Source of the DNA: Emiliania huxleyi CCMP1516
Lineage: Eukaryota
Reading direction: 5' to 3'
DNA: 64,000 nucleotides
Assembly: GCF_000372725.1 (NCBI RefSeq)
Contig: NW_005201551.1
Span: forward strand, 378,594 to 442,593
The notes beneath the pieces were generated by a model. It saw only the letters and a list, made by a program, of their open reading frames with translations. It ran no database searches and was not told where the DNA came from. The number at the start of each line of letters is the position of its first letter. Position 1 is the first letter of the stretch. The position numbers and the translations under genes were made by a program. Below are positions 1 to 62,397 of the stretch, piece after piece.

Positions 1-2
1 TG

Positions 3-14732: not shown

Positions 14733-15449
14733 TCATCCTGCGTCGCCCGGCGCCATCCCCGTCGCCTCGAAGGACGCCTCGCTGCCCATCCTTGCGGCGG
14801 CGCCTCCTGCCGCGTCGAGCTCCAGCAGCAGCGCCTGCGCCTCGTCCACCGAGGGGTCGCCTGTGAGGAATAATGAATGGCTAATTAGGGGGTCGCAGCA
14901 GCGGCTTCGCCTTATCCACCGAGGGGTCGCCGTCGAGCTTCCACCCTTCGGCAAGGATCGCCTTGGAGGGCGGGTGGGGGGGGGGGCACCACGGTTAGCG
15001 AAGGTTATTCATTACTGGCAATTGCTCATTCTTAGGATCGCCGCGAGAGGGGGTCACCGCGCGGCCAGCTACACGTTACTTAATCATGGGCAGCTGTTGC
15101 TCGCTACTAGGACCGCCTTGAAGGTGTCGTAGAACCGCGTCAGCTTCTCCCCAAGCTCCGCCGCCCTCCGCCGCTGCGCCGGCGCCGCCTGATAACTAAC
15201 CACTAGTCAATGAGAGTGGGTTGATCAGATCGGCCTTTCGCCGCCGCGGCGGCGCCGCCTCGCCCTCCCCTCGCGCGAACACGGCGAGCCGCTGCTGCAG
15301 CGCCTGTGGGTAGGGTAAGGTAAGGTAAGGTACGGTACGGTCAGCTTCTCCACACACACACGAGGTGGCGGGGCAGGGGCCAGGCTAGTCCCTCGCGACT
15401 CCACGTCTAGACGACAGGAGCCGCACGGCATTCAAGGTGCGCGTGGGTG

Positions 15450-15505
<56 letters not shown>

Positions 15506-15543
15506 GTGTGTGTGTGTGTGTGCGCGCGCGCGCGTGTGTGTGT

Positions 15544-15635
<92 letters not shown>

Positions 15636-15654
15636 TGTGTGTCTGTGTGTGCGT

Positions 15655-15709
<55 letters not shown>

Positions 15710-21200: not shown

Positions 21201-22035
21201 GATCGCCGAGAGATGACCGATAGCTCGCCGAGATATGGCCGAAGAGATCGCCCAGAGATGGCCGAGAGAAGACCGAGAGAGACGGCCGAGATAGATTCGG
21301 CGGCTGTGGACGGCGCCTCTTCACAGCGGCGCGGTGTGAAAACAGGCGCACCTCGAGCTGGGCGAGCGAGCGACGGTGAAGCTGGCGGTGCAGGCGCGCG
21401 CACGCGCCGTGAGTTTACTCCTTTCTTCCTTGGTACACATGGCCGTGGAGCTGGCGAGTGCCGGGAGCGCGGGGGGGGGGGGCAGAAGCAAAGAGAAGCT
21501 GCAAGGAAAAGAGAGCGCGGGGGATAGCGTGGGTTCGGGGCGGGAGACGCTGGGCTGATCTCGGCTGACCTCGGGTGATCTCCGCTGATCTCGGCTGACC
21601 TCGGCTGACCTCGGCTCACCTCGGCTGATCTCGGCTGCATCTCGGCTGACCTCGGCTCACCTCGGCATTAGGAGTGGGAGAAGGCGCTCGAGCTCGACCC
21701 GGACAACAAGTGGAGATTAGCCGAGATTCAACCGAGCTGCGATGCGAGATGCGATGCGATGCGAGATGCGATGCGAGATGAGGGGACTGAGACACCATCA
21801 GCCTTCCCCTTCAAACCACCCTGTCCACACATCCTTTCCTCTCGATCACCCGCCTTCAATCGCCCCTCCGCCGCCCCTCCCTCCTCGTCCCCTATCCATC
21901 CCCAGCACACATGGACATGGACATGGGGTTGCGCTTGGCGTGAACGGCGTCTCTTCACACCCCTTGCTGTGAAGCAGGTCGTACAAGGAGGGGCTCAAGG
22001 ACGCGCAGCTCACGTGGGAAGCCGACTGGGCGTAG
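18256..22035 (+). CDS. DnaJ (J-domain) + C-terminal TPR co-chaperone, many short exons
   Basis: Spliced reading: MTVDAAYEFLGI..LEKLKMRFRKMSLKWHPDKN..AAEVFKAVNAAYHTL (J-domain with HPD). TPRs: AEGFNDQAVKAFKAKDWQRCYDLSSEAIRLNP..YLGNRAAAALK..AKAYVRAAQAHLELG..WEKALELDPDNK. Ends ..LTWEADWA* at 22035. Confidence 0.9.
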
Positions 22036-22774: not shown

Positions 22775-23013
<239 letters not shown>

Positions 23014-26800: not shown

Positions 26801-29800
26801 CGCTGCCTCCTCCTCCTCCTCCTCCTCCCCATGGCGTGCCGGGCCGGGACGCGCCTGCCGCCTCGGGTCACTCTCAGGTCAATCTCAGGTCAATCTCAGG
26901 TCAATCTCGGGTCAATCTCGGGTCAATCTCAGGTCAATCTCGGGTCAATCTCGGGTCAATCTCAGGTCAATCTCAGGTCAATCTCAGGTCAATCTCAGGT
27001 CAATCTCAGGTCAATCTCAGGTCAATCTCGGGTCAATCTGGGGTTAATCTCGAATGTATCCCGAGCGAAATCTCGGCTGCATCTCGGCTGCATCTCGGCT
27101 GCATCTCGCGCCCAGCAGCGGCGACGCGCGTCCGGACGAGGGCTGCGAGGGCGGCTGCGAGGCGGGGCGGGAGGCGGGGCTGGCGGGCCGGCTCCCCGAC
27201 CGCGCGCCTGTGGGGAGATGCGACCTCGGCGTCATCTCGGGTGAGCTCAGGTCTTCTCGGGTCATCTCGGGGTGAGCTCAGGTCTTCTCGGGTCATCTCG
27301 GGTGAGCTCGGGTGAGCTCGGGTGAGCTGGGGTGAGCTCGGGTGAGCTCGGGTCATCTCGGGTGAGCTGGGGTGAGCTCGGGAGATCGATTGGATCCAAT
27401 GCTGACCCGTCTCTGGCCATGGTTGGCCCTCCCGTGATTGATCCGTCCACAGCACGCCCGCGCTTTCTCACAGATCCCATAGTTCCACGCCCCGGTCCAT
27501 AGCTGATCCGCACAGAGCCCACCCTTCCACAGCTGCCCCGTCTCACACCCGTCCATGGCTGACTTGCTCTCATGCACATAGCTCTTCCCATAGCTGCGCT
27601 CATCCATAGCTTTGCCCGTCCATCTCTTTCGCCCTGCAGGCCCGAGCATGCCCACATGGCAGGCCCGTAGCATACCCGCCCGTACCAGCCATTGCTCGTC
27701 CATTGCTGCCCCGTCCATTGCTGACCGTCCATGGCTGACTTGCTCTCATCTGCACATGGCTGGTCCCATAGCTTTGCCCGTCCATCTCTGGTCCCACAGC
27801 TTTGCCCGTCCATCTCTTTCGCCCTGCCCAACCTCTGGTGAACTAGGATCATATCGCGACATCTCGGGCGATCTCGGCTCATCGCGCCGGTCGGCGGCGC
27901 GGCGGCGCGGGCGTCGCGAGAGGCGGCAGCGATGGCGTGCACAATGTCGCCGACCTGTTCACAGCGCAGCGCGTGTGAAGAGACGCCGTTCACAGCTGGC
28001 GGTGGCGTGGGCCACGCTTCCGCCCACCCACGCGCCCGCCTCCGCCGCCGACGGCGCCGCCATCTCGTGCGTGCGGCCGTCCCTCTCCCGGAGGAGGATG
28101 CGGGCGGAGCGGGAGCCGGCGGCGGGGGAGTGGAGAGGGTTCGAGACGGTGGCACCGCGCAAGTCCACCTTGGGGAACAAAGGGAGGGGGGGCGGTCGGC
28201 TGCAGGCGTGGGAGAGACGGCGGCAGACGGTAGCAAGTCCACCATATCTCCCCATCTCTCCCCATATCTCCACCTTGAACGCTGGCAAGGTGGCGAGGCG
28301 AGCCGCGTCGTCAAACACGCAGAGGCGGCCGCCTGTCCACAGCAGCAAGTGTGAAGAGGCGCATTCACAGCGGCGGGGGGAGGCGGGACGACGGAGTGGC
28401 GGCTGCCCTGCACCAGCCCAAGCACCGGAGACCACAGGCCCGTCACCTGTTCACAGCGCGTGTGTTCACAGCCCGTCGCCAGCCCGATGCTGTGAAGAGG
28501 CACGTCACCGGCGAACGGAGCGTCATCGGGCCGCCGACCTGCATCGGCGAGCTCGAGATCAGCCGAGAGGTGTCACTCATTAACGACGACTATCGCTCAT
28601 TCATCAGAGAGAGGGCCTGCAGCGGCGCGGTGAGCTCGAGAGGTGGCGTCTCCTCCGCCGTCGCCGCGTCGGCAGCGCGGCGCGGAGCAGTCGCCTCCGC
28701 AGCGGCGCCCTCCTCCGCCGCCTGCGAGTGGAACCATATCAACCATCGCCATCTCTACGCCTCTGCAGCCGCACCCCCTCCTCCTCCTCCGACGCCTGCT
28801 CCGCCGCTAGCACTCTGGCCGCGTGCGGCGCCAGCAGCTGCGACACCACGAACAGCGCGACGTCCTGTGACAAACCACCAGAAGAGTTCAGCACGACAGT
28901 TCATCACTGACTGGCCTAGCTGCAACGCGGGGAAGAGCGCGGCGGGCCTCGGAGAGAAAGTACGCCGAGTGCGCCGAGAGAGCGGCGAGGCTCTCCGAGA
29001 TCCAAGCCTGATTCATCAGGGCGTTAATTAGCCTCAACCACGAATTAATTAGCGGCGAAGCTCCCCGAGACCCAAGCCTAATCAAACAATTGTGTGCGGT
29101 TAGTGAATTGATGGATTAATGGATTAACTTGGCTGCCCGGGCTCCAAGCCTTGGAGCTGAAGAGCTGCATGTCCGTCTCGCCGCGCCGGTCGTTCTCCTA
29201 CAGTGGAGATGTGGGGAGATATGAGGGAGATATGAGGGAGATATGGGTGTGCCGGTACTTATCGCACGTGATGAATACACACCGATCAGAAGGCGGGAAT
29301 GCGGTGGTGCACTTTAGAGCGTCGTGCGAATATGAGGCCGACTGCCGTCGCCGTCTCTCCCTTCTCGACTGCCTGTGCTTGTGCGTGTTGGGCCCCTGGG
29401 TTGTGTCTTGGTGTGTCTTGGTGTGCATACGAGGAATGCGAGCGTTGAGTGGGCCTCTCGAGCGCCAGTTGGAATGCATGAATTCGTATTCCGCTTCTAG
29501 GGCCCTTCTCCGCCAGCCACGCGAGCGCCTCTGCACGCGTCGCCCCGATCGGCAACGAGCGCGCCGCGGCGGGAAGGAGCCTGTGTACACTCCCTAGACA
29601 CCTCCTAGACACTTCCTAGACACTTCACAGCCGCGGCGGGGAGGAGCCGAGAGCGAGCCGGCCGCGTCTGCTTCGTCACCTATAGGAGAGCTCGGACAAT
29701 CTCGGGGTCATCTCGGGGAATCTCCCCGGCCGTGTTCTGCTTCGTCGCCTGATTCGTTATCGTTCATTCCTTAGGGGAAGCGCGAGTGGGCCTGCCGCGT

Positions 29801-32800
29801 CCTGCTTCCGTCACCCAGTCTCGCGTGGCGCGGGAAGCGACGAGCACGCCGTCCCGCGTGGGCGGCGGCAGCAGCGGCTCCACCTTGCAGACGTGAAACA
29901 AGTCGTCACGGACTGAAGAGTGCTTGCTTGCGGCGGCGGCAACAGCGGCTCCGCCTTCCAGCTGACCGGGTCCGCGCGCGACCAAATGTTGAAGTACGCG
30001 TCGCAGCTCGGCCGCGGCACTCCTAATGAGTTAATTCACTAGTCAGAAGGCATGCATTATTAGTCGCAGCCTCGGCCGCGGCACTCCTTTTGGCCCGTCC
30101 GGCTCGCACCTATTTATTGAGACAGTGTGATTCCCTCTTTGTTGAATAACGCCCCCTGGCCCGTCCGGCTCGCGCCTCTTGTCGGCCGTCTCCGAGCTGC
30201 GCTCGTGCCTGCGTTAATGAATTGGGGCAGCTAACGTCTGTGAAGTGTCTAGGAAGTGTCTGTGCAGAGTCTAGGAAGTGTCTAGGAAGTGTCTAGGAGG
30301 TCTAGGAAGTGTCTAGGAAGTGTCTAGGAAGTGTCTAGGAAGTGTCTAGGAAGTGTCTAGGAAGTGTCTAGGAAGTGTCTAGGAAGTGTCTAGGAAGTGT
30401 CTAGGAAGTGCCTGCGAGAGACGAGGAAGAGAGCGGCGGGAGAGCCGCAGGCGAAGAAGCAGTCCACCGGGAAGGGGAGCACCTGTTCACAGCTAGAGGT
30501 GTGAAGAGACGCTGTTCACAGCTAGAAGCAGTCCACAAGGAAGGGGAGCACCTGTTCACAGCTAGAGGTGTGAAGAGACGCCGTTCACAGCTAGAAGCAG
30601 TCCACCGGGAAGGGGAGCACCTGTTATCAAATGATGACGCGTATCGATTGATTGGCTGAAAACGAAGAAGCAGTCAGGAAGCGGAGCACCTGTTTTTAAT
30701 TAATTATGACTAAGTAGTTGGCCGCAGGCAAGGAAGCAGTCGGGCAGCGGAGCACGGGGTAAGAGACGCCGCCGACCGCCCGCCCCGCCTTTGTGAGCAA
30801 GTCGCGGTGGTGATGGTGCCGAGAGATGGCCAACTTAATTCATGATGAATTAATCAACGGCCTTGGTGAGGAGGTCGTAGGTGATGATGGTGCCGAAGGA
30901 GTGGCCTAAGAAGGCGAGATCGTATCTCGGAGATTGTATCTCGCCCGGGAGATGATGGTGCCGAAGGAGTGGCCTACGGGACATGTCTCTGAAAGGTCGT
31001 GGACGTGTCCCGGACATGTAGGTGACGATGGTGCGAGTGGCCAAAGATCGAGACGCCGCCGCTGAAGCCGGGGTGCTCCGCGACGAATGCGCGGTACCTG
31101 CCCGGTGGTGAATGTGCTAATGAATGAATGAGCTGAGTAATCACCAACTTAATGGGTGCTCCGCTACATAGGCGCGGTACCTGCCATTGGTTCACTGATG
31201 ATGACCAGAGGCTCCGCCACAGGTGGGCTAATCTCGAGCAATCTCGGGTAATCTCGGGTGATCTCGAGCAATCTCGCTTCGAGGTGAGCTGGTCGGCGAC
31301 GGCGTCGATGATGCGCTGGCCGTGCGACGTGGTCAGGTAGTAGAACACGTCCATCACCTAATTAATTCTCAATTGTGCGTGTTAACTGTTAATTATGCGA
31401 CGTGGTCAGGTAGTAGAAGACGTCCATCACCTAATTAATTCTCAGTTGTGCGTGTTAGCTGTTAATTATGCGACGTGGTCGGGTAGTAGAACACGTCCAT
31501 CACCTAATTAATTCTCAATTGTGCGTGTTAACTGTTAATTATGCGACGTGGTCAGGTAGTAGAAGACGTCCATCACCTAATTAATTCTCAGTTGTGCGTG
31601 TTAACTGTTACTTATGCGACGTGGTCAGGTAGTAGAAGACGTCCATCACCTAATTAATTCTCAGTTGTGCGTGTTAACTGTTACTTATGCGACGTGGTCA
31701 GGTAGTAGAAGACGTCCATCACCTAATTAATTCTCAATTGTGCGTGTTAGCTGTTAATTATGCGACGTGGTCGGGTAGTAGAAGACGTCCATCACGTTCT
31801 CGCGCATGAAGGAACGCATGTCGCCGGCGCCCTCGGGCATGCACGCGCGCAGCAGCTCCTGCGAGATCACCCGAGATCACCCGAGATCATCCGAGATCAC
31901 CCGAGAGCACCCGAGATCACCCGAGATCGCCCGAGATCACCCGAGATCATCCGAGATCATCCGAGATCACCCGAGATCACCCGAGATCACCCGAGATCAC
32001 CCGAGAGCACCCGAGATCACCCGAGATCACCCGAGATCACCCGCGAGCATCCGAGATCACCCGAGATCACCCGAGATCACCCGAGATCACCCGAGAGACT
32101 ACTCACGCGCAGCGGCGCCTGGTCCTCCGCCTCCCCGCCTCCGCCTCCGCCGACCGCCACATCTCCGTCAAGCGCCGCTCCCTCCCTCGCCGCAGCGCCG
32201 CCGCCCCCGTTGCCCAAGCTGCCTAGCTCGTTCAAACGTTTAACTATGAGCACTCGTCCTCCACAACTAAACAGTCGCCCCCAGTGCCAAAGCTGCCGCT
32301 GCTTCCGCTGCCCGGCACTCCGCCGCCGCCGCCGCCGCCGCCGCCTCCAACACCGCCTCCTCCTCCTCCACCACCTCCTCCTCCTCCGCCTTCAGCCGCC
32401 TCCGCCTCCGCTGCCGCCGCCGGCGCGGCGTCGAACAGCTGCGGGTAGTGCAGCAGCGAGTGCCTATGAAGTAGCAATTAATAGTCAATGATGATCTCTT
32501 GGCACAGCGGAGGGTCAGTGCAGCAGCGAGTGCCTACGCGTTCACAGCTGCTGGTGTTAAGAGGCGGGCGGTGGGGTGCAAGCCGCGGGTCAGTGCAGCA
32601 GCGAGGCGCGCCATTCGATCGAATGCACCGTCACCTCCGCCTGATAGTACTCATTCTTAGGATTAGGACTGTTCTCGCCATTCGATCGAATGCACCGTCA
32701 CCTCCGCCTGATAACAACTAGCTCAGTCAGTCACTCGCCCGGCATCAGACCGCCCTCTGCCTCTCCTTCCGCCGCCTTGATCCCGCGCAGCCGTGTCCGC

Positions 32801-33498
32801 AGCTGCGCCTGTTGGAAGAGGTGTGAAAGGACAGCTCAGAGAGGTCTCAACTGCTCTCGCGCCACCGTTGCTGCTGCTCAGCTTAACTCGGCTACACCTC
32901 GGCTACACCTCAGCGATCTCTCGTCCCGATCTCGGCAAGCTCTCGGCAGCACCTCAATCAGCTCGCGGAACTCGCGGTTGCCTGTGTTCGCGACCAAACG
33001 TGTGAAACTACACTGCGCTGCGCGGAGGCGCGTGCGGTCTGAGAGTGTTCAGGTGTGTGCGGTCACGCAGGTTGCGTGGAGTGTTGCGCTGAGTTGAGCG
33101 TGCGCGTGCGGCTGGCGAGAGAACGTGCGATTGAGCGCGAGTGTGTCCACGAGCTGCTGCTGCCAAAGAAGCGTGCGGCGAGTGGTGTCGTCCGATGGTG
33201 TGAGTTCGCCTCCTGGGCCGTCGCCCTTCCCGTCCGGCTGGCCGTCCCAGGAGAGGTTTTTGCCGTCGATAAAGTCGTCGTGGCGGCCGATGCCGTGCAC
33301 GAGGAAGAGGAGGTGCTGGCGCGAGCACACTGGTGAGGCTGCAGCCGCAGCACAGCCTGCCCCGCTCTCCTCGGCCGCACCGAGCTTCTTCTCGAGCGTC
33401 CGGCGGAGCGCGCCGAGGAGCGCGGCGGCGGCCTCGGGATGGTCGGCGTCGAGTGCGATGCGCTGAATGGCGGCGAGCTCCGCGCCGATCCGCTCCAT
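23884..33498 (-). CDS. DDHD-domain phospholipase A1 (PA-PLA1/SEC23IP family) with a downstream PH-like domain; multi-exon, 3' end uncertain
   Basis: ATG 33498. Motifs HLLFLVHGIG, IEW, MDVFYY, GGVSIFGHSFGTIITYDLL (lipase GxSxG), FPVDCFFACGSPAALFL, YFNIWSRADPVSWKAEPLL and SAHSAYF. PH-like exons at ~28530-27930. Exons below ~27900 are low-complexity and tentative. Confidence 0.8.
24577..25185. repeat. Compound 11-bp satellite: (CTCGGCTGCCT)n switching to (CTAAGCTGTCT)n near 24780
   Basis: Visible directly. The two units are in register and differ at 3 positions. Confidence 0.97.
26875..27040. repeat. Intronic 11-bp tandem repeat (GTCAATCTCRG)n
   Basis: Visible directly. Confidence 0.95.
30243..30408. 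repeat. Intronic 11-bp tandem repeat (AAGTGTCTAGG)n
   Basis: Visible directly. Confidence 0.95.
31358..31795 (-). repeat. Intron made of 6 x 73-bp units (copy of next exon start + AT-rich filler + AG)
   Basis: On the minus strand the unit GTGATGGACGT(C/G)TTCTACTACC(T/C)GACCACGTCGCA...AATTAATTAG precedes the true exon VMDVFYYLTTSHG. 438 bp = 6 x 73. Confidence 0.92.
31862..32095. repeat. Intronic 10-bp tandem repeat (CCGAGATCAC)n
   Basis: Visible directly. Related CCGAGAT-core arrays occur in many other introns. Confidence 0.95.
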
Positions 33499-42178: not shown

Positions 42179-45100
42179 ATGTTGCAGTTCCGCCGGAGCT
42201 TGCGTCCCGCGGCCCTCCGCTCGGCGCTTCGCTCGGCGCCGCCGCTGGCTCCGCCGCTCGCCGGCCGTGCGAGCTGCCCGCTCGCCGGCCGCGCACGCTT
42301 CGCCTCCGCCGCGTCGAGCGCCGCCTCGCCGGGAGGCGGCCGGTTGGCTGCGGCCGGTCTCGCCGCCGCCGCCGCTGCTGCCGCGGGCTACGGGGCGTGG
42401 CAGCTGCAGCTGGGCGCGGGCGAGGACGAGGCTGCGCCGCTGAGCGGCGGCGGCGGCGGCGGCGGCGTCCCCGAGGCGTCGCTCACCCGCCGCCAGCTCG
42501 AGGCGATCTACGCGTTTGAGAAGCGGATCGGGCAGGGCGGGTTCGGCGACGTGTGGCTGGCGCGCGACGCGAAGAGCGGGCGGCAGGTCGCGGTAAAGCT
42601 CATCTCGCTCGAGAAGCTCCCTCGCGCCATGGTCGAGGTCGAGGTCGAGGCGATGCGCCGCTGCGGTAGAGCGCAACACCTCTGCAGGCCAGCCTCTGCT
42701 GCAGCCTTCTGTCTCCACGGCGCTTGTATTCACACGGCGCGTAGGCTCTCACCCGTACATCATCGAGCTGCTGGGCGTGTACTGGGTCCGGCCCGAGGGG
42801 CGTGCGGCCGACAGCGGCCCTGTCGAGGCGGCGATTGTGATGGAGCTGGCCGGCGGCGGAGGCTTTCCTTAGCCGAGATCACGCGAGATCACGCGAGATC
42901 ATCCGAGATTGTGATGGAGGCTCGCCGGCGGCGGAGGCGACCCGAGATGACCCGAGAGATACGCGAGATCATTCGAGATCATTCGAGATCACCCGAGATT
43001 GCGCGAGGGGCCCCTCTCGGAACCTTCCTGTGGCAGGCCTGTTCGAGCGCCTGGTTGCGGAGGGCGCGTACACGGAGCAGATCGCATCCAAGATCATCAA
43101 GCAGGTGCGAGATGCGGCCGAGAGATGGGGCACGCCTCGGCTGTCACACCCTGCCGGCTGCTCTTCACACCTCGTCTGTCCATGTTGCAGACTCCGCTAA
43201 CAAGAGAGTCCCAATGTACTTCTTTTCCCAGGTCGCCCTGTCGATCTACCACCTCCACTCGCGCGGCATCCCGCTACCGCCGACCTCAGCAAGGCGGTGG
43301 CAATCAGCTAATTAGTTATTAATTGCATGATTCAGGCATTCCGCGCCGCCGGTCTCAGCCGGAGAAGGCGGTGGTGCATCAACTCATTCATGACTCCTTG
43401 CTGGGTCCAGGCATCCTGCACCGCGACCTCAAGCCCGAGAACGTCGTCTTCGAGTGTGAAGCGCGGCAGCTTGCGGCCGAGCTGTGAACCGGAGGGCCGG
43501 AGGTGTGAACAGAGGCGCTGTGAACAGGAGCGCGACTCTGCGATCAAGCTGATCGATTTCGGTGCCGCCGCCACGCTGGAAGGGGGTGATAGAATGCGCG
43601 GCTCTTCACAGCTGCAGCTGTGAACAGGCACCGCCGTGACGCTGGACGAGGCGGGGGAGAAGGTGCAGGGCGGAGGGCGGATAGGCACCTCGTCTTTGCT
43701 GGGTCATGGTTAGTTGTTCCTGCACTACTCGGTGATCCGTTAAGCGGAATAGGCACTTGGTCGTACTGGGCGCCCGAGCAGCTGGCGCCGCCCTTCCTCT
43801 GCACACCTCTTCCCGCTGTGAACGTGGACTCTTCACGGCATGCGTGGTGTGAACAGGCGCAGCAGCCGTACGGCTTTGAGGTCGAGTTGTGGCCGTGCCG
43901 GAACTTTCTCGGAATTTTCTCGGAACCGGGTGCGACCCTTTTCGGAATTTTCCTTAGGTCGACCTCTGGTCGCTCGGCGTGCTCCTCTACATCCTGCTGG
44001 TTGGCTTCCACCCCTTCGACCCGGAGGGGGAGGCGAGATTAGCTCGAGATTGGCCCGAGATCGGCCGAGAGTCCGTTGCTTGTGAACGCGCAGACATGAA
44101 GTCGCGTGTGTGTGTCGTAATCCAGCTCACTCGTCGTTTTGCACCCGGTGCTCTCCGAGGCCGGCCAGCACGTAAGCACCAAGCGATGCGGTCGGATAGG
44201 CGAACGAGCAGCAGATCCTCGCAAACATGAAGGCGCGCACGCCTCCTGCCTCCGACACGCCCAATCCGTTGAATGGCTTCTTACTTAGTTAGTTTGATCG
44301 ACATCAGGCGCACCGCCTCTGCCTCGACGCGCCGGAGTGGGGCACCGTCTCCGGGCAGGCAAAGGGGCTCCCGCTAGCTAATTTGACTACCGAACTTCGT
44401 TACGTGGGGCACGGTCTCGGGGCTCGCGCTAGTTAGTTTGAACTACCGAGCTGAGCTGCCCCCCCCCCCCCCCCACCCTCGGGGCAGGCAAAGGGGCTCG
44501 TCGTCTCTTTGCTCGAGCCCGACCCGGAGCAGCGGCTGACGGCGGCGCAGCTCATTTCGCACCCGTGGGTGCTCGGGCAGGACGTGCCGGGCAGGCCGAT
44601 GCCGGCGACGCAGGAGCGGCTGCGCCACTTCACGCAGGCCCGCAACGCGTTCTACGGCTCGCTGCTCATGGGCCTTCTCGTGCACCAGCTGTCGACCAGT
44701 GCGGACGCAGAGGGGCTCGGCGGGCTGCAAGTGGGCGGGAGTACGACCGATGCAGAGGGCTGGATGACAAGGATGGCATCGATATCAGGCGGGCTGCAAG
44801 TGGACGTGGTTCGCGAGGGGTGGCGCGCGCTCGACCGCGACGGGAAGGGCCACATCGACGCGCAAGACCTGTGGCGCGTCTGCCTCGACATGGGGTACAA
44901 GGTGCCGCCAGTGGACAGCGGGCCAGGTGGTGTTGCGGTGCTCCCGCTTGGGTTGATGCACGCACTGCGCACTGGTCATCAGGTGTCGCCAAAGGACGTG
45001 GACCAGATGGTCTGCGTGCTCGCTCCGACGGGGCTAGAAAGAAGATGCACCAGCGCTCCTGGTGTGAACGGCGTCTCTTCACACCTGCAGCTGTGAACAG

Positions 45101-48100
45101 GCTAGAGAAGAAGGTGCACCAGCGCTACTCCTCCCGCGGCGACGGGAAGCCGGCGCCGGAGGCGGGAGGAGGAGGAGGCAGCAGCGGCGGCGGAGCGGAG
45201 GGCGGCGGCGGCGGCGGCGGCGGCGGCGGCCCGGCTCGCATCTCGTACGAGCGCTACTGCAAGACGCTGGCTGGCTCCTTCTCGCGCACCTTTGAGAAGG
45301 GGGCGTACGTGTTCAAGGAGGGGGGAGGGGGCGGTGGACGCGACCGCCGCCCTCGTGTCAGTTAGCTGAGCCATAGTTGATCATGGACAGGAGGGGGACC
45401 CGGTGGACGCCTTCTTCGTGATCACGAGCGGCGCCTGCGAGGTGCGTGGCCCGGGCAGCACGGAGATGTTGATCTCGGCTGTATCTCGGCTGCATCTCGG
45501 CTGCATCTCGGCTGCATCTCGGCCGCATCTCGGCTGCATCTCGCCCGCATCTCGGCTGCATCTCGGGTAGGTGCGGGTCGCGGGCCCGGACGGCAAGGAG
45601 CGGCTGATTGCGACGCTCGGCGCGGGCGACTTCTTCGGCGAGACTTCTTAAACTAGTACTAAATTATTAATTATTCATTCAGGCGCGGGCGACTTCTTCG
45701 GCGAGATTTCTTAAATTAGTACTAAATTATTAATTATTCATTCAGGCGCGGGCGACTTCTTCGGCGAGACCGGCTTGCTGGAGGGGAGGAGCGTGCGGGC
45801 GGCGTCGGTGTTTGCGACGGCGCCGCTCGAGGTGCTGGCGATTCACTGATTAGCAATTAATTAATGACGCACTAATTGGTCACCAATTGCCGCTCGAGGT
45901 GCTGGCGATTCACTGATTAGCAATTAATTAATGACGCACTAATTGGTCACCAATTGCCGCTCGAGGTGCTGGCGATCGACCGAAAGGTCTTCAACGAGGC
46001 GCGCGCACACCTCTTAATTATTAACTCGTTGAAGAAGGAAGGAGTCGATCCATTTGTTGTTCACAGGTTGCGAGCGTGCACAACTCGTCCGCTCTCTCCA
46101 CCTCGATGCGCGAGCGCGCCGAGGCGAGGCAGCGGGCGAGGCTGCTAATTAATTAATAGGCAACTAATCAATAGGTGCCTAATTAATGAATAGGCGAGGC
46201 AGCGGGCGAGGCTGCTCAAGGTGTTTGAGAACATGTCGGTCTCCCTCTCGCAGCGCCGCCGCTTCGGCAAGGGGGCGGTGGTCTACCAGCAGGGGAGTCC
46301 GGCTCAGCTCTTCACACCGCCTAGCTGTGAACAGGCAAGGGGGCGGTGGTTTACCAGCAGGGGAGTCTGGCTCAGCTCTTCACACCGCCTAGCTGTGAAC
46401 AGGCAAGGGGGCGGTGGTTTACCAGCAGGGGAGTCCGGCTCAGCTCTTCACACCGCCTAGCTGTGAACAGGCAAGGGGGCGGTGGTTTACCAGCAGGGGA
46501 GTCCGGCTCAGCTCTTCTACATCGTCAACGAGGGCGAGCTCGAGATGTCGGTGAATAAGCCGGACGGAGGCTCTTCACACCGCCTGGCTGTGAACAGGCG
46601 AGCTGGAGATGTCGGTGAATAAGCCGGACGGAGGCTCTTCACACCGCCTGGCTGTGAACAGGCGAGCTCGAGATGTCGGTGAATAAGCCGGACGGAGGCT
46701 CTTCACACCGCCTGGCTGTGAACAGGCGAGCTCGAGATGTCGGTGAATAAGCCGGACGGAGGCTCTTCACACCGCCTGGCTGTGAACAGGCGAGCTCGAG
46801 ATGTCGGTGAATAAGCCGGACGGAGGCTCTTCACACCGCCTGGCTGTGAACAGGCGAGCTCGAGATGTCGGTGAATAAGCCGGACGGAGGCTCTTCACAC
46901 CGCCTGGCTGTGAACAGGCGAGCTCGAGATGTCGGTGAATAAGCCGGACGGAGGCTCTTCACACCGCCTGGCTGTGAACAGGCGAGCTCGAGATGTCGGT
47001 GAATAAGCCGGACGGAGGCTCTTCACACCGCCTGGCTGTGAACAGGCGAGCTCGAGATGTCGGTGAATAAGCCGGACGGAGGCTCGGTGCGTGTAAAGAC
47101 GCTGCGGCCGGGGGACCATTTGGGGTACGATGCGATCTTCTCGGAGGTGCTACGACTCGGCGATGACTTGGATGAGTTGGTTAGCTAACTCGTCACCTGA
47201 ATTGAACAATCGCATCAGGTGCACGACACGACGGTGACTTGCCTGAGCGAGGTCGAGCTGACTGAGGTCACAAAGGAGGTGCTCGGCGTTAGTTAATTAA
47301 TTAATAGGTGACTACTTTTAATTAGGTCGAGCTGACCGAGGTCACAAAGGAGGTGCTCGGCGACGCCTTCTCGAACGACCGCTACTTCTCGACCATCTTC
47401 GAGGCGAGGCAGCACTTGCGCGAGGGGCAGCTGTGAACAGCGTCTCTTCACACCTGTTGCTGTGAACAGGCGAGGCAGCAATTGCGCGAGGGGCAGCTGG
47501 CGGCGGCGTCGCAGGGGGAGGCACAGATTCTGCCGATGATGGCGCGCGCGGCGGCGGCGGGAGACGGCGTCGACTACAGCCAGTACGAGTCGCTCATCCA
47601 GGAGATTGCGCCAGATTGTTGGTTGATTACTAGGCGTCGACTACAGCCAGTACGAGTCGCTCATCCAGGAGATTGCGCCAGATTGTTGGTTGATTACTAG
47701 GCGTCGACTACAGCCAGTACGAGTCGCTCATCAAGGAGATTGCGCCAGATTGTTGGTTGATTACTAGGCGTCGACTACAGCCAGTACGAGTCGCTCATCC
47801 AGGAGATTGCGCCAGATTGTTGGTTGATTACTAGGCGTCGACTACAGCCAGTACGAGTCGCTCATCAAGGAGATTGCGCCAGATTGTTGGTTGATTACTA
47901 GGCGTCGACTACAGCCAGTACGAGTCGCTCATCAAGGAGATTGCGCCAGATTGTTGGTTGATTACTAGGCGTCGACTACAGCCAGTACGAGTCGCTCATC
48001 AAGGAGATTGCGCCAGATTGTTGGTTGATTACTAGGCGTCGACTACAGCCAGTACGAGTCGCTCATCAAGGAGATTGCGCCAGATTGTTGGTTGATTACT

Positions 48101-49704
48101 AGGCGTCGACTACAGCCAGTACGAGTCGCTCATCAAGGAGATGGCGCCGCTGGAGGTGTCGCACGGCGAGGCGATCTTCCAGCAGGGGGGCATTGGCGTT
48201 AAGTAATTAAGTAATTAATTGATAGGTGTCGCACGGCGAGGCGATCTTCCAGCAGGGGGACCCGCCCGAGCAGGTCTACTTTGTGTCCGAGGGGCAGCTC
48301 GAGTGCGAGTATGACCCGAAGCTCGACTCGCGCGCAAAGAAGCGGCGGCCGTCGGGCGAGGCGGTGGTCACGCTGTGAACGGCGCCTCTTCACACCTCGT
48401 GTCTGTGAACAGGCGGCCGTCGGGCGAGGCGGTGGTTGGGCGCGACGGCAAGCCGCGCGTGGTAGCGACGCTTGGCCCAGGCGACCACTTTGGGGAGACG
48501 GCGATGCTGGAGGCGAGGAAGGCGCGAAACTTGACGGTGCGTTGCGTCACCGCGAGCTGCGTGCTGCGGGCGATGAGCATGGCGCGTTTCAGCGAGATCT
48601 TGCGGCAGCGGCCGGAGCTGCACTTCACGGTGCAGCGGGCGGCGGTCCTTGCTGGGCGGGCAAGTCTCTTCACACCGTCTGGCTGTGAACAGGTGCAGCG
48701 GGCGGCGCAGATGCGGACGAACCAGCGGATTCGCAACGTCGTCGCTTCAGCGGCGGACGAGGACTTGCGCGTCGTCAGCTTTGCGCCAGGCGAGACCGTC
48801 TTCCGGCAGGGCGACCGCTTCGTGGACACTTCCGTGACACTTCCGAGACACTTCCCCAGGCGAGACCATCTTCCGGCAGGGCGACCCGTCCGACTCCTTC
48901 TACGTGCTCGAGAGCGGCGAGGTGGAGATGTCGCTGGTGCCGCCTCTTCACAGCGTCGGAGGAGAAGTCATCTACGCGGGAGAGGCTCGTAATCACTCGT
49001 AATTAATAACAGGTGCCCGCGTCGGAGGAGAAGGAATCAGTTACGCCGGAGAGGCTCAGAATTAATCGTAATTCATGGTTAATCATCAGGTGCCCGCGTC
49101 GGAGGAGGATGAGCCTTCCGCGCCCGTGCCGGTCCCGCACTTACACTTCAGGAGCGGGGTTCGGTGTGAAGACGAGAGGTGTGAAGGCTATGGCTGTGAA
49201 CAGGCCCGCGCTTGCACTGCCGGCGAGACGATTCTCCGGGGCTGAGAAGCACAACAAAGAACTCTGTGAACAGGTCCGCACTTGCACTGCCGGCGAGACG
49301 TTCGGCGCGTCGGGGCTGCTGCCGGGAGACAACGCGCGCCGCGCAACAGGGCGACGCCTTGAGGGAGATCACCCGGAGATCGCCCGAGATTGTCCGAGAT
49401 TAGGTGCGCCGCAACACGGCGACAGCGCTCTCGCCCGTCGTCGTCAAGGTCATGCCCGTGAAGCTCTTCAAGGCGATGGTGCGCGAGGACGGCTTCCTGC
49501 AGGCCTCGGCCCCCTGCCACCACACCACCGCCAAAGTATGTGTGTGTGTGTGTGTGTGGAGAGAGAGAGAGAGAGAGAAGCTTACCTCGCCTGACCTCCC
49601 TGCAGGCCGGGCTGAAGGCGTCGGGCTCGTACGTCGAGGCGCGCGCCGTGTCGGAGCTCGACGAGACGCTGGACGCGGAGGTGCAAAAGGCGATGGCCAG
49701 ATGA
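42179..49704 (+). CDS. CAMK/CDPK-like Ser/Thr kinase + EF-hand + four cyclic-nucleotide-binding domains, with an organelle transit-like N-terminus; many exons
   Basis: Kinase motifs IGQGGFGDV, VAVK, HPYII, HRDLKPEN, IKLIDFG, YWAPE, DLWSLGV and RLTAAQLISHPW. EF-hand LDRDGKGHIDAQDL. cNMP domains: VFKEGD..GDFFGETGLL..RAASV; VYQQGS..GDHLG; IFQQGD..GDHFGETAML..RNLTV; IFRQGD..GETFG..RNTA. The N-terminus is Arg/Ala/Ser-rich followed by a hydrophobic stretch. Stop TGA 49702-49704. Confidence 0.9.
46267..46470 (+). repeat. Intron made of 3 x 68-bp units (exon-start copy + CTCTTCACAC..CTGTGAACAG)
   Basis: 204 bp = 3 x 68. Each unit starts GCAAGGGGGCGGTGG, like the following exon. Confidence 0.93.
46534..47045 (+). 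repeat. Intron made of 8 x 64-bp units (exon-start copy + TTCACAC..CTGTGAACAG)
   Basis: 512 bp = 8 x 64. Removal restores NEG|ELEMSVNKPDGGSVRVK. Confidence 0.95.
47567..48102 (+). repeat. Intron made of 8 x 67-bp units (exon-start copy + TTGTTGGTTGATTACTAG)
   Basis: 536 bp = 8 x 67. Removal restores GDG|VDYSQYESLIKEMAPLE. Confidence 0.95.
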
Positions 49705-49863
49705 CGCGCAGGGCTCGCGAGGCGCAGGGGTGAGGGTGGGGCGCGGTTTTTTTCGTTTGCGTTGGAGGAGGGCTCTCGCCAAATCGTATATTACACGGCC
49801 CGCTTGCCGCTGCTCACCGAGGAGCGCGCTAGGTTGTAGTGCCGCCGCCGCACGATGCCCGCC

Positions 49864-55188: not shown

Positions 55189-56830
<1,642 letters not shown>

Positions 56831-58115: not shown

Positions 58116-61100
58116 ATGCGCAAACGCCGCACCATCCTCGTCGTCGGCGACTCCTTCTGCGACGTCAACGCCGGCCCACTGCCGCGCCTCCCAGAGTGGG
58201 GCCGCAACGTCGTCTCGCCAGAGCGGATCCTAGCCCAGCCAGGCGGAGCCGCGCTCAACGTCGCCTGCAACCTGCAGCGGCTCCGAGGCGACACCGCTCT
58301 CTACTCGGGCATCGGTGAGCCGCTTCCAATCAGTCCGACTTCACACGGACACCACCGACTCGACAGGCGGATCGACTCTCCTCCTCTCACACGGTGCATC
58401 TCTGGCCCAGGCCGCGATGCGTTTGGCGACATGCTGCGCGTCCACCTCGACTCGCTGGGTGTTCGGCTGATCGAGGCGCGTTCGGGACTGTTGTAGACAC
58501 CTGCCACCAAATGATGTGTGCTTCCCGGGCAGGCTTAACACTGGCCTGGGACGTAGCGGTGGATGCCGGCTAGACGCTTCGGCACTGCCCTGCTTCGACA
58601 TTGCCCGGCTAGACGCTTCGACATTGCAACGCGCTCCTTCAGGCGGACTCGGACGAGGACGCGCCGACCGGCGTCTGCATGGTCCAGATTACCCGAGATT
58701 ACCCGAGATTACCCGAGATTACGGCGTCTGCATAGTCCGAGGATCGGGTATCTCGGGTGATCTCGGGTGATCTCGGCTAATCTCGGGCACGCAGCACAGG
58801 TCCTCTCCGGCCCCGACGACCGCGCCTTCTGCTCCCACTTCGGCGTCTCGGACGCCTTCGACGCGTCCGCCCTCGTCGCCGACGGCGCCGCCTTGCTCCG
58901 GCGGTTGGGGCCTTGCCATGTCCACTGCGCGGGCTACTTCTCCTGCGCGGCGCTGCGGAAGACTCTCCCTCGGCTGCTGCTGGCGGCGCGAGAGGTTGGC
59001 GCCACGACAAGCCTCGACACTAACAACGACGCGAGCGGACAGTGGGGCGCCGTGGACGGCCTGTGCGATGCTCTCTTGCCGCCGCTAGACTTCTTCACGC
59101 CTCTGGCTGTAAACAGGCGCCGTCGACGGCTTGTGGGATGCACTCTTGCCTCTGCCGGATCTCCGCGAAGAGGTGTGAGCAGCGCCTCGTCACGGCTTGC
59201 TCTGAGATGCACACAGGTCCTCTTGCCGCTGCTCGACCTCTTCACACCGAACGAGCTCGAGGCGTGCGCCGTCGCGGGCGTGACTATTAGTTAATTAACC
59301 CTACGAGGGCGTCACTAGTGATTAATTAACGAGCTCGAGGCGTGCGCCGTCGCGGGCGTGCCGGCCGGCGACGTCGAGGCCGCCCTCGCCCGGCTGTCGC
59401 GGCAGGTAAATTAGTGAATCGCTAATAATGAATTAGCTCTCGCCCGGCTGTCGCGGCAGGTAAATTAGTGAACACCAAAAATTAATCAGCTCTCGCCCGG
59501 CTGTCGCAGCAGGTAAATGAATGCATTTAGTTAATTAATGATTCACTAATGACTGCTGAAAAATTAATTAGCTCTCGCCCGGCTGTCGCAGCAGGTAAAG
59601 CAAGACTGATTACTCTTTAATAAGCTCTCGCCTGGGTCGCGGCAGGTAAATTAGTGAACACTAATTAGCTGTCGCGGCAGGTCGGCGGCAGCGTCGTCAT
59701 CACGCGCGGGCGGGACGGGGCGAGATATACCCGAGATATACCCGAGATATACCCGAGATATACCCGAGATATACGCGAGATATGCCCGAGATATACCCGA
59801 GATACGGGGCGCGACGGCCGGCGGTCGGTCGACCCGAGATCTATCCCGAGATGTACACGAGATCTATCCCGAGGTGTAGGCGCTTGTCGGCGGGCGGTCG
59901 GTGGAGACGAGAGCTGTCTCCGCTCCGCCGGTCGTCGCTCGCGACGCGGTGGGCGCTGGCGACGCCTTCAAGGCCCCGCCCGCGCCATGACTAGTCAATT
60001 AATGTTTACTTCATTATTCATGAACGAGTTGGCGACGCCTGGCCAGGCTGGCCTGCTCGCTTGCTTCGTCTCTGGAGCAGACCTGGCCGAGGCGGCGCAG
60101 TACGGCTGCCTCACCGGCGCTAATTAATATCAAGTGGAGCTGATGACAGCTTAATATTTAATTAGGCGGCGCAGTACGGCTGCCTCACCGGCGCTCTCTG
60201 CGTCACGACACGCGGCGCCTGCTCGCACCCTCCCGCCGCTACACCTCGGCTGCATCTCGGCTGCATCTCGGCTGCATCTCGGCTGCATCTCGGCTGCATC
60301 TCCCCTGTCCAGGCGCCTGCTCGGACCCTCCCGACGGGGCGCGTGTCGCCGCCTTCGCCGCGCAGCATGGGCTCTCCTCGGTCGCTTCCGCCCTCCCGGC
60401 TTGCGGCGGCTCGAGCTCTGCTGCAGACGGCGACGGGCAGCAGCAGGAAGAGGGGCGGAGCGAGCGGGAGGAGCGGGCCGCTGTGCCTGCTGATGACTGA
60501 TTGTTCCTAGTCCATGGATGGTTGATAGTTGGTAGTAGGAGGGGTTCCTGTGGTGGACCTTTGCGCTGTTGTGGTTGGGAGGTACCTGGCCGTCTAGAGC
60601 AGAGGCAGCTGTCACGTTTGTTGATGCTCGGTGAGTACTTGCTGATTACCGTCAGGCACCTGGCCGTACCAGAGCATTCTTCAGGCCCAGGCCTACTACG
60701 AGGCAGAGCTGCCCGGCCTCTCACATTAGTTAGTCAATCAATAACTATAATTGACTAATCACGAGTTCGAGGCGGAGCTGCCCGACCTCGCCTTTCTCGT
60801 GCTGATGACCTTCTCGTGGCCGCTCGTCGCAGGGCACGCGGCGCAGGTCCTCTCGGGTAATCTCGGCTAATCTCGGGTAATCTCGGGTGATCTCGGGTGA
60901 TCTCGAGCACGCGTCGCAGGTCCTCTCCTGCTTAGATAACTAATTGCTTGCTGGATTCATGATTAATGAAGTAATCCGCAGGTCCTCTCCGGCGCCGCAA
61001 AGGCCGCCCGCTTCTCCGCAAAATCATCGTTGTCTTATTTAGTAATGAGTGATCACTTATTATGAATGAGTCAGGCCGCCGGCTTCTCGCGGCGCGTCCT

Positions 61101-62397
61101 CGGCGCGTGTTGCGTCAACGCCGCCGTCGGCGTCGCCTTTCTGCTGCAGGACGCGGCGCCTCTGTTCACACCTCTGCTTCACACCTCCTCTTCACACCTC
61201 CTCTTCACACCTCTGCTGCAGGACGCGGCGCCTCTGTCGCCCGGCGGCCGGCGAACCGCGATGACTATCCTCGCGGCCCTCGTCGCGCTGGCGCGGCTGC
61301 TGCGCTCTCGAGCTTCTCTCGGAGATCGCCCCGGAGATCGCGCGAGATCGCCCGAGATTAGGCGCAGCTGCTGCTCGAGCCGGCCTTGTTCGGCCTCGCC
61401 ACGTGCTCTCCCCGCGGCAGCGCCACGCAGGCGAGGATCTCCCGAGATCGCCCGAGATCGCCCGAGATCGCCCGAGGTCACCGGAGATCACCGGAGATGA
61501 GGCAGTGCCACGCAGGCGATGATGGTGGGGAACGCGTCCGCCGGCGTCGTCGTCGTCGCGGCCAGCGCGCTCACGCGCCTCGCGGCGGGTGGCGCGGCGC
61601 CGTCTGGCGCGCAGCTCGGCATCGCTGCGCGCGCCTTCTTCGGCCTGCAGGTGGCGTCGAGCGCCGCGTCGTGCGCGCTCTACCTCGTGGCGCTGCGCCG
61701 CTCGCCGCGCCTCCTCGCCGCTGCCCGAGGAGCGGGGCGACGAGGAGCCGCCTCGAGCGCCTCTGCGATTGGCTCGCCGCTGCTGACGCCGGACGTGGCG
61801 CGCGGCGCGGGCGAGGCGCCGCCACGCTCGGGGTGGCGAGAGAGGGGCGCTGCGGTGCGCGCCGCGGCAGGCGCGGTCTGGCTGCCGGCGGCTTGCCAGG
61901 CGCTCTGCTTTGGCACCACGCTCGCCGCTTGGCCGAGCATCCCCGGCGCCGCGTGCGTCGAGGGCGGCCTCGCACGCTTGGGCCAGGGCTGGTGGTTCAC
62001 GCTCGTGGTGCTCGTGTACAACGTCGTCGACTTCGCCGCCCGGCTGCACCTCCCCCTCCTGCAGCGGCTCGCCGCCCGCGCTCGCCCGCGCTCTTGCCTC
62101 GCTGCGTGCGCCGCCCGCACGCTGCTGGTGCCGCTCATCTACGCGTGCGTCCGCCCGCGCCTTGTCCACGGCATGGGCGGCAACGTCGTCTTGCTGCTCG
62201 CCACGGCGCTGCTCGCGCTGAGCAACGGCGTCCTCGCCACCGCGTCGATGATGCAGGTCGCGCGACTCGCGCCGGAGGAGCTGAGGGAGGAGGGGGTCGA
62301 CGTCGCCGTCGCGGGAGTCTACTTCGGACTCGCGGCGGGCGCGACCGTCAGCTGGGCGGTGGGGCGGGCGATGCAGCTGCCGCTCGCGTGTGGGTGA
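58116..62397 (+). CDS. PfkB-family carbohydrate/nucleoside kinase fused to an equilibrative nucleoside transporter (ENT/SLC29-like); multi-exon
   Basis: PfkB motifs ILVVGDSFCDV, PGGAALNVA, GIGRDAFG, PTGVC, FTPNELEA, VVITRGRDGA and DAVGAGDAF. After GC-AG intron 60477-60538 the frame continues into ENT motifs: FALLWLGGTWPYQSILQAQAYY, EPALFGLA..TQAMMVGNASAG, TTLAAWP, YNVVDFAAR, LSNGVLAT..M and GLAAGA..SW. Confidence 0.8.

What the first reader, a model, noticed from the sequence alone, without database searches (positions are those of the whole stretch)
42660..49610. Introns built from a copy of the neighbouring exon edge plus stereotyped filler: a candidate intron-generating system
Seen: in the kinase gene and in other spliced genes here, many introns start with a 10-45 nt near-copy of the start of the NEXT exon, then switch to filler ending in AG. 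Examples: 45620-45743, 46267-46470, 48155-48225, 48790-48859, also ~18768-18827, ~20430-20494 and 60582-60655. A mirror class copies the END of the previous exon (59406-59680). This explains the frequent GC donors, because the donor dinucleotide is simply the first two bases of the copied exon. Fillers fall into a few classes: AT-rich TTAATTA tracts, 10-11 bp CCGAGAT-type arrays, a 40-nt TTCACAC/GTGAACAG cassette, and once telomeric repeats. Inference: these introns arise by duplication around a break or target site with filler inserted between the copies (repair- or element-driven intron gain). GC donors and short intronic repeats are reported for E. huxleyi, but I do not know of a description of this duplication-plus-filler architecture.
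Basis: partly seen in the sequence, partly recalled or inferred. Interest (0 to 1): 0.85.

Follow-up and report, generated by a model that had tools for sequence, protein, structure and literature searches.

The report
Introns born from exon-edge duplications
In the alga Emiliania huxleyi and several relatives, many spliced introns consist of a short copy of the neighbouring exon edge plus a reusable filler (sometimes telomere repeats), and they likely arise as new introns when broken DNA is repaired, which would make intron birth observable in living populations.

Summary
The gene (42179-49704) matches E. huxleyi model EMIHUDRAFT_458993 and has 35 introns: 13 shown by RNA contigs, 20 more by a transcript-derived protein. 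Intron starts match the next exon far above chance (score 14.7 vs 1.6, 0 of 100,000 permutations); 47 of 91 introns in five genes carry a clear copy. Copy plus filler is mostly 63-79 nt or a multiple. Four DNA runs carry the same introns, so it is not an assembly artefact. Positions are not conserved in orthologues from other haptophyte-like lineages (1 of 129 site tests), yet three such lineages show the same build with their own fillers, including telomere repeats. Near-identical alleles there differ by whole introns at four sites, one a perfect 41-nt duplication plus a 40-nt intron tail. Best reading: ongoing intron gain by duplicating break repair with a copied-in splice-signal filler. The enzyme and the direction of each event are inferred. 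No empty allele was seen in E. huxleyi. Introner surveys list only small unclassified E. huxleyi families; I found no description of this build.

The parts
42179..49704 (+). Protein kinase with EF-hand-like region and cyclic-nucleotide-binding domains; 36 exons, 35 introns, 1085 aa; 10.7 introns per kb of coding sequence
   Evidence: Intact ORF; RNA joints; P0005; Pfam of orthologue P0003: Pkinase plus 5 cNMP stretches; density
42666..44982 (+). Introns 1-14: mostly decayed copies of the next exon start; 13 shown by RNA joints; present in DNA of other samples
45033..45100 (+). Intron 15: 28-nt near-copy of next exon plus full ~40-nt cassette filler; contigs of all four DNA runs pile on the cassette with unrelated flanks
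   Evidence: depth 3,324-22,511 in this bin against 1-69 in neighbouring bins (not a copy number); boundaries from reading frame only
45318..45390 (+). Intron 16: GA donor, next exon also starts GA
45620..45745 (+). Intron 18: two 63-nt units, 25-nt exact exon copy plus AT-rich filler
45832..45965 (+). Intron 19: two 67-nt units; the duplication straddles the junction (11 nt of next exon, 10 nt of previous exon) around an AT-rich filler
46267..46470 (+). Intron 22: three 68-nt units, 47-nt copy joined to a 5'-shortened cassette through a 7-nt overlap
46534..47045 (+). Intron 23: eight 64-nt units, 40-nt copy plus shortened cassette
   Evidence: copy number not confirmed by the DNA contigs
47567..48102 (+). 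Intron 27: eight 67-nt units, ~46-nt copy plus short AT-rich filler
48156..48225 (+). Intron 28: 34-nt exact copy plus AT-rich filler, 70 nt
48790..48859 (+). Intron 31: 27-nt copy plus 11-nt repeat array, 70 nt
18256..22035 (+). DnaJ-domain gene with TPR-like end, 15 introns of the same kind (includes 18625-18828 and 20430-20495)
   Evidence: Intact 428-aa ORF; DnaJ hit; TPR label by eye; no RNA test
58116..62397 (+). PfkB kinase joined in frame to a nucleoside transporter, 19 introns (includes mirror intron 59406-59680, and 60582-60655)
   Evidence: Intact 782-aa ORF; PfkB and Nucleoside_tran hits; no RNA test
59047..59116 (+). Intron whose 55-nt copy runs without a gap across the next splice junction in its spliced form (46/55)
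29503..33498 (-). First 18 exons of a lipase-like gene (DDHD-type motifs by eye), 17 introns of the same kind; the gene continues towards ~23700
   Evidence: Intact ORF; sequence; no RNA test
14733..16612 (-). Six-exon gene, five introns, two with clear copies
55691..55778 (-). 24-nt duplication (23/24) around 40 nt of pure telomere repeat in register with the left copy; forms a 64-nt GT-AG candidate intron 55761-55698
   Evidence: splicing not tested

Best explanation
These are spliced introns made of a 10-55 nt copy of the local exon edge plus a short filler, and they are likely new introns gained when a staggered break in an exon is repaired with duplication of the break site and a filler copied in between the two copies. 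Shown: the build, the splicing, non-conserved positions, and filled/empty allele pairs in relatives. Inferred steps: (1) The duplicated stretch supplies one splice site: the donor when it begins GC, GT or GA, the acceptor when it ends AG, or both. (2) The filler supplies the rest. It is mostly the 3' tail of another intron (branch-like motif to AG), joined through short matches; in telomere-type cases it is repeat added to one or both 3' ends by telomerase. (3) Only inserts of about 63 nt or more that splice out cleanly survive in genes, which restores the reading frame exactly. (4) Because each intron sits between direct repeats, it then expands into tandem units, is hit again at its junctions, decays, or is deleted precisely.
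For: Copy excess. Length: none of 91 introns under 63 nt, 44 at 63-79, 18 at 126-155. Positions: 1 of 129 tests shared; a complete genomic orthologue (L002) has one intron and lacks all 29 testable window sites. Intron-rich and intron-poor lineages are interleaved on a quick tree. Filled/empty pairs: L012 and L015 carry an 81-nt intron (exact 41-nt duplication plus 40-nt tail) that L011 lacks at 99.3-99.6% coding identity, and the same tail family ends four other introns of L011. L009 and L010 differ by three whole introns in about 470 nt of coding sequence, at sites where no other covering locus has one. Fillers are fixed at the AG end and shortened to different degrees at the other. Overlap of 5 nt or more at the copy-cassette joint in 4 of 9 units vs 3.5% in simulated joins. 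Telomere-type introns: 5 run G-rich then C-rich, 7 are C-rich only, none the reverse, of 12, the order expected if both 3' ends of a break are extended. The window's telomeric insert is pure and in register, as reported for telomere insertions at breaks (PMC7215372, passages). Eight other cassette-spacer-cassette units of 66-74 nt appear in the DNA runs (table 5c, lengths counted by hand; flanks not seen).
Against: Blind break repair should also leave such inserts between genes, but 63 of 66 repeat clusters and all cassette ends lie in spliced units (30.6 kb) against 31.8 kb outside. I drew two of the seven units from the introns themselves, and the outside DNA looks like young repeats. No empty allele in E. 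huxleyi: 22 of 35 kinase introns are bridged with the intron present in at least one of four DNA runs (tables cut), and L017 has introns 1-11. An empty allele can also arise by recombination between the two copies, so direction is not proven. The L012/L015 site is shared with the distant L014/L016 lineage, and two further sites are shared between non-Emiliania lineages. The polymorphic L010 filler is not pure telomere repeat (7 of 10 units exact). Two hints favour an RNA template: one copy spans the next junction in spliced form, and copies are better towards the 3' end of the kinase gene (rho 0.46, p 0.005), though not in the other genes pooled (rho 0.13, p 0.33). 40 of 91 introns show no clear copy at either end. 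Each empty allele rests on one metagenome contig.
Confidence: 0.6

Rival explanations
1. Same gain, but through RNA: a retroelement reverse transcriptase copies the 3' tail of an intron RNA into a nicked site, or spliced RNA templates the repair, giving a variable-length target duplication.
For: Fillers are anchored at the 3' AG and shortened at the 5' end with short overlaps. Inserts are confined to spliced genes and the cassette core is in sense orientation 31 to 0. One copy spans a spliced junction, and there is a 3' gradient in the kinase gene. Variable duplications and 5' truncation are typical of target-primed reverse transcription (general knowledge).
Against: Selection for clean splicing also predicts 3' anchoring and sense orientation. 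The gradient is not seen in the other genes pooled. The junction-spanning copy is equally explained if the neighbouring intron came later. Mirror units and head-to-head telomere fillers need extra steps. No poly(A) tails are seen in the fillers printed.
Confidence: 0.22
2. The introns are old; duplications across their junctions overwrote their content, and empty alleles are precise losses by recombination between the copies.
For: Junctions are hit repeatedly: internal copies of exon edges in L009, L011, L018, and 70-131 nt insertions at existing splice sites between close alleles. A few sites are shared between distant lineages. No E. huxleyi polymorphism was seen.
Against: Of 30 window sites tested in other lineages only site 14 is shared. 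Each intron-rich lineage has its own set, so an ancestor with all of them would need implausible density and near-total independent loss. L009 and L010 each have private introns.
Confidence: 0.1
3. They are ordinary introners: small non-autonomous DNA transposons whose target-site duplication supplies one splice site.
For: The cassette is a dispersed family with a very high pile-up of contigs. Co-option of a splice site from the duplication is described for introners (PMC9860276, passages). Small E. huxleyi families are listed as 'co-opt 5' carry 3'' (PMC12130899 supplement rows).
Against: Duplications are 11-55 nt and variable, not the 3-9 bp of introners. The filler's 5' end is ragged. Cassettes fold no better than shuffles (z -0.3 to -1.2). 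Several unrelated filler types, including telomere repeat, share the build.
Confidence: 0.05
4. The duplications are assembly artefacts.
For: The window is a gapped draft. The eight-unit arrays were not bridged by contigs, so their unit counts are unconfirmed.
Against: Contigs of four DNA runs carry the single-unit introns, a metagenome contig repeats introns 1-11, RNA contigs splice them out, and many copies have diverged from the exon.
Confidence: 0.01

Closest known systems
Introners that co-opt a splice site from their target-site duplication (Gozashti et al. 2022, PMC9860276; 2025, PMC12130899; passages and supplement rows read)
   Same: One splice site comes from the duplication and the other is carried in; splicing restores the mRNA; fillers form dispersed families. 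E. huxleyi is listed (653 elements in 2022; families of 5, 6 and 45 in 2025, superfamily 'Unknown', one noted with 10-bp terminal direct repeats), and a Chrysochromulina family has 4-bp duplications.
   Different: Here the duplication is long and variable (11-55 nt), the filler is 5'-shortened without terminal inverted repeats, several filler types occur, and about half of all introns examined show it. The listed families may be a small visible part of this system; I could not match them by sequence.
[quoted passage not shown]
   Same: Direct repeats from repair of a staggered break flank inserted DNA that is spliced out.
   Different: There the repeats are described as short and seen at 43% of gains, and end joining is noted to favour mitochondrial DNA as the insert. 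Here the repeats reach 55 nt, the filler is a recycled splice-signal module, and the process recurs in several lineages at high density.
Intron gain by tandem genomic duplication of an AGGT-containing exon segment (PMC3443670, passages read)
   Same: A duplicated exon edge provides donor and/or acceptor; gain is precise.
   Different: A foreign filler lies between the copies and supplies the branch region and often the AG; GC and GA donors are used.
Short interstitial telomeric sequences inserted at breaks (PMC7215372, passages read)
   Same: Telomere repeats in register with the break, sometimes with target duplication (3 of 66 horse loci) or head-to-head arrays.
   Different: In mammals none lay in exons; here such inserts sit inside coding sequence as apparent introns. 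Calcidiscus leptoporus has pervasive interstitial telomere repeats (PMC13518057, passages), but the passages read do not link them to introns.
GC-rich donors and short intronic repeats of E. huxleyi (Feldmesser et al. 2014, PMC4028052, passages read; Read et al. 2013, recalled, not held)
   Same: GC donors are about 64-65% there and 57 of 91 (63%) here; rare GA donors are also reported.
   Different: That paper attributes GC donors to genomic GC content; the passages read do not mention exon-edge copies.

Membership tests
Spliceosomal (U2-type) intron | Removed precisely from mRNA, G-starting donor and AG acceptor | tested here: met
   13 RNA joints, P0005 across introns 16-35; donors GC 57, GT 29, GA 5 of 91
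Introner (DNA transposon type) | Dispersed family of similar introns | tested here: met
   Met for the filler only: cassette copies in window and pile-up in DNA runs; the 5' part is locus-specific
Introner (DNA transposon type) | Short target-site duplication of fixed length (3-9 bp) | tested here: not met
   Copies of 11-55 nt; 41 nt in the L012/L011 pair
Introner (DNA transposon type) | Fixed ends with terminal inverted repeats | tested here: not met
   Ragged 5' end; folding not above shuffles
Introner (DNA transposon type) | An autonomous partner encoding the transposase | not testable with these tools
   No whole genome held
Intron gain by break repair | Filled and empty alleles, with the target single in the empty allele and doubled in the filled one | tested here: met
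   L011 vs L012/L015; L009 vs L010. Met in relatives only; none seen in E. huxleyi
Intron gain by break repair | Short matches at the repair joint | tested here: met
   4 of 9 units with overlap of 5 nt or more vs 3.5% simulated; small sample
Intron gain by break repair | Same scars in non-genic DNA, both orientations | tested here: not met
   3 of 66 clusters outside spliced units, none of this build; one window only
Intron gain by break repair | Dependence on end-joining enzymes | not testable with these tools
   Needs mutants or mutation-accumulation lines
Pure tandem genomic duplication | Intron consists only of duplicated exon sequence | tested here: not met
   Foreign filler in every unit printed
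Telomerase-made interstitial telomere insertion | Pure repeats in register with the break; G-rich on the left end, C-rich on the right | tested here: inconclusive
   Met for 55691-55778 and for order in 12 of 12 introns; but arrays in L009, L010, L018 hold many variant units, and selection for splice signals predicts the same order
Target-primed reverse transcription (SINE-like) | Variable target duplication, 3'-anchored and 5'-truncated insert, A-rich or simple-repeat tail | tested here: inconclusive
   First two features met; no A tail in the fillers printed; RNA template not shown

The most novel reading that the evidence does not exclude
Prymnesiophyte algae run a transposase-free intron factory: intron 3' tails, and telomere repeats added by telomerase, are copied into duplicated exon sites in expressed genes. 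Most introns in these lineages, their GC and GA donors and their repeat arrays are products of this one ongoing process, with introns appearing and vanishing between alleles.
Probability: 0.4. Interest if true: 0.92.

Novelty: new variant of a known kind. Interest (0 to 1): 0.82.

Why it matters
How new spliceosomal introns arise outside transposon bursts is a long-standing open question, and documented repair-type gains are few (five unambiguous cases in the table of PMC3443670). Here each young intron carries a readable record of its birth: the duplication, the filler's source family and the joint. Related lineages show filled and empty alleles at about 97-99.6% identity, so rate and mechanism become testable with strain genomes already public. 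It offers a local, testable cause for the GC-donor majority of E. huxleyi, and suggests that telomere repeats can serve as ready-made splice signals. In practice it explains mis-built gene models: the deposited model of this gene is 490 aa with intron sequence read as protein, against 1085 aa.

Tried and rejected
No whole genome was held, so all E. huxleyi counts are from five genes of this window. The cassette pattern was not found in viral contigs (0 matches). Rfam gave no match in the window. Folding of cassettes and AT-rich filler was no better than shuffles, so a hairpin or terminal-repeat reading was dropped. Polarity of the 10-11 nt arrays in E. huxleyi is weak (p 0.04; both orientations in only 2 introns) and they occur on both strands equally (60 vs 64), so I do not count them as telomerase-like. 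A general 3' bias of young copies was not supported outside the kinase gene. Two protein searches meant to check the PfkB and DnaJ genes used the wrong reading frame and gave nothing usable, so those genes rest on reading frame and Pfam hits. The joint table of the DNA runs was swamped by cassette copies from other loci (15 of 231 rows shown), so a rare empty allele could be hidden; depth over the tandem arrays differs between runs but is not a copy number. Of 21 loci, L008, L019, L020 and L021 were dropped as poor or unrelated matches. L001, L004 and L005 were left out of the position test as probable transcripts or unreliable alignments, L013 as a distant paralogue, L015 as a duplicate of L012 and L017 as E. 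huxleyi itself; 11 loci were used. For one search I kept 29 introns in well-aligned parts, one per site and lineage. The tree is the quick version, with several partial rows; the lineages are not named beyond the L011 group falling with a Prymnesium parvum protein. Literature searches found no description of this build. Read et al. 2013 is not held; supplements of bioRxiv papers, files 13-14 of PMC12130899 and the cut part of the PMC9860276 table were not seen and could hold more.
Full report
Identity and gene. Exon 13 of the gene at 42179-49704 is 100% identical to Emiliania huxleyi CCMP1516 model EMIHUDRAFT_458993. Removing 35 introns gives an intact 1085-aa frame: a kinase with cyclic-nucleotide-binding domains (Pfam of the orthologue P0003). 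RNA contigs show joints for introns 1-11, 13 and 14; these are 13 of the 15 rows shown, the other two are short-sided joints that fit no intron, and 72 rows were hidden. I set the later introns with a helper that looked for duplications, so I checked them independently. The MMETSP protein P0005 matches across introns 16-35 with four residue differences. A spliced aligner that knows nothing of duplications, given P0003, recovers 30 of 35 introns exactly. Intron 15 rests on the reading frame only.

The observation. With the donor dinucleotide left out, intron starts match their own next exon with mean score 14.66 against 1.55 for other exons; none of 100,000 permutations reaches this, and the RNA-only set of 13 gives 7.46 against 1.22. 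Four further genes, annotated by reading frame, give 8.54 against 1.61 over 56 introns, and 6 of 56 carry a copy of the upstream exon end (two donors were one base off in that call and were fixed). Over all 91 introns, 47 have a clear 5' copy and 51 a clear copy at one end or both; 40 have none.

Anatomy. A unit is copy plus filler. No intron is under 63 nt, 44 of 91 are 63-79 nt and 18 are 126-155 nt; longer ones include exact tandem arrays of 3, 6 and 8 units. The duplication can lie after the junction, before it, or straddle it (intron 19). The cassette filler is fixed at its AG end and shortened to different degrees at the other end. In 4 of 9 young cassette units the exon copy and the cassette overlap by 5-7 nt, against 3.5% in simulated joins. 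Donor equals the first two exon bases in 71 of 91 introns, and all five GA donors precede GA exons. GC makes up 66% of GC+GT donors against 78% of GC+GT dinucleotides in the coding sequence, so copying with a mild preference for GT would give the GC majority reported by Feldmesser et al. (PMC4028052, passages). That still presumes a GC-tolerant spliceosome. Fillers and spaced repeats are almost confined to spliced units: 63 of 66 clusters.

Not an artefact. Contigs of four DNA runs carry the introns; one contig spans 42478-45031, and 22 of 35 introns are bridged in at least one run, always filled (tables cut). The cassette bin draws depth in the thousands against tens beside it, with dozens of contigs leaving into unrelated flanks. 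Eight other cassette-spacer-cassette units of 66-74 nt show up; their flanks were not seen. The unit counts of the long arrays are unconfirmed.

Other lineages. A scan of metagenome contigs gave 21 loci. In 11 genomic orthologue loci outside E. huxleyi, window sites were shared in 1 of 129 tests, covering 30 of 35 sites; site 14 is also shared by L009 at its contig edge. L002 spans the gene with one intron. Yet three lineages build introns the same way with their own fillers: telomere-type repeats (L009, L010, L018), 10-11 nt arrays plus a 40-nt tail family (L011, L012, L015), and a further set (L014, L016). Over 29 introns the 5' score is 5.93 against 1.29, and 15 of 29 hold an exon-edge copy somewhere inside. 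The intron-poor loci L003, L006 and L007 show no clear copy. A quick tree interleaves rich and poor lineages. L012 and L015 carry an 81-nt intron, an exact 41-nt duplication plus a 40-nt tail, that L011 lacks at 99.3-99.6% coding identity; the same tail ends four other introns in L011. L009 and L010 differ by three whole introns, two private to L009 and one to L010. In 12 telomere-type introns the order is G-rich then C-rich (5) or C-rich only (7), never the reverse. The window's own telomeric case is a 24-nt duplication around 40 nt of pure repeat, in register.

Mechanism. The simplest account (inferred) is a staggered break in an exon, filled in on both sides so that the site is doubled, with a filler copied between the copies: another intron's tail, or telomere repeat on the free 3' ends. 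Splicing then uses the duplication for one or both sites, and selection keeps only inserts long enough to splice. Direct repeats then allow expansion, repeat hits and precise loss. Against it: no such scars between genes in this window, no empty allele in E. huxleyi, a few sites shared between distant lineages (including the L012/L015 site), variant units in a polymorphic telomeric filler, and two hints of an RNA template. I give repair-type gain 0.6, RNA-mediated gain 0.22, remodelling of old introns 0.1, classical introners 0.05.

Relation to known systems. It works like introners that take a splice site from their target duplication (PMC9860276, passages), like break-repair and tandem-duplication gain (PMC3443670, passages) and like telomere insertions at breaks (PMC7215372, passages). 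It fails membership of DNA-transposon introners on duplication length and fixed ends. Introner surveys do list E. huxleyi: 653 elements in 2022 (supplement rows) and families of 5, 6 and 45 members of unknown superfamily in 2025, one noted with 10-bp terminal direct repeats (supplement rows). These may be a small part of this system. Direct repeats near splice sites are reported generally (PMC11782384, passages), at a mean of 11 bp and with no mention of Emiliania or haptophytes in the main text. Genome papers on Calcidiscus, Phaeocystis and G. huxleyi (passages) do not describe the build in the passages read. Ten searches found no description; Read et al. 2013 could not be read. The scan's own index showed no note of it.

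Verdict. Real, spliced, widespread in this window and repeated in related lineages with allele-level turnover. New variant of a known kind; interest 0.82.

Noticed in passing
window 58116-62397 (+): A PfkB carbohydrate kinase and an equilibrative nucleoside transporter read as one 782-aa frame across a GA-donor intron (60471-60538); the fusion is not checked with RNA.
   Followed up: partly
window 42179-49704; P0001: The deposited model EMIHUDRAFT_458993 (490 aa) is mis-spliced and truncated; the gene reads as 1085 aa with orthologues in Prymnesium parvum and Calcidiscus leptoporus.
   Followed up: yes
window 7940-9335 (-), 37950-39300 (+), 53660-54812 (+): Three similar genes with LRR_6 repeats and, by eye, one shared GC-donor intron near the end; they lack the copy-plus-filler introns.
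   Followed up: partly
window 9480-10040, 36690-37000, 40020-40230, 52220-52570, 57200-57760: Repeated fragments that by eye resemble the endonuclease end of non-LTR retrotransposons (resemblance recalled; no Pfam hit for the two tested). Relevant if a reverse transcriptase drives the inserts.
   Followed up: partly
window 12900-13750 (-), 40320-41110 (+), 49850-50750 (+): Three copies of an intergenic repeat of roughly 800 nt, one inverted (read directly).
   Followed up: no
window 10255-10760 and 11720-12210: A long inverted repeat of about 500 nt around a ~950-nt spacer.
   Followed up: no
window 15304-15782 (-) and 22760-23010 (+): A (CA)n tract with a shared ~130-nt flank lies inside an intron right after a copy of the upstream exon end, and again between genes.
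   Followed up: no
L014 vs L016; L011 vs L012/L015: Close alleles differ by 70-131 nt insertions or duplications at existing splice junctions; the 131-nt insert in L016 resembles, by eye, the neighbouring intron's content.
   Followed up: partly
L010 140-160: By eye, a fourth intron private to L010 ends just upstream of the aligned part; it is cut by the contig, so it was not counted.
   Followed up: no
window 47404-47490: The transcript-derived protein P0005 has His where the window exon has Gln; the intron's copy of that codon also reads His, so the copy keeps an allele found in another strain.
   Followed up: no
window 1-1672 (+): End of an intron-free frame with ankyrin-like repeats and a U-box-like end, by eye; no Pfam hit for the one frame tested.
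   Followed up: no
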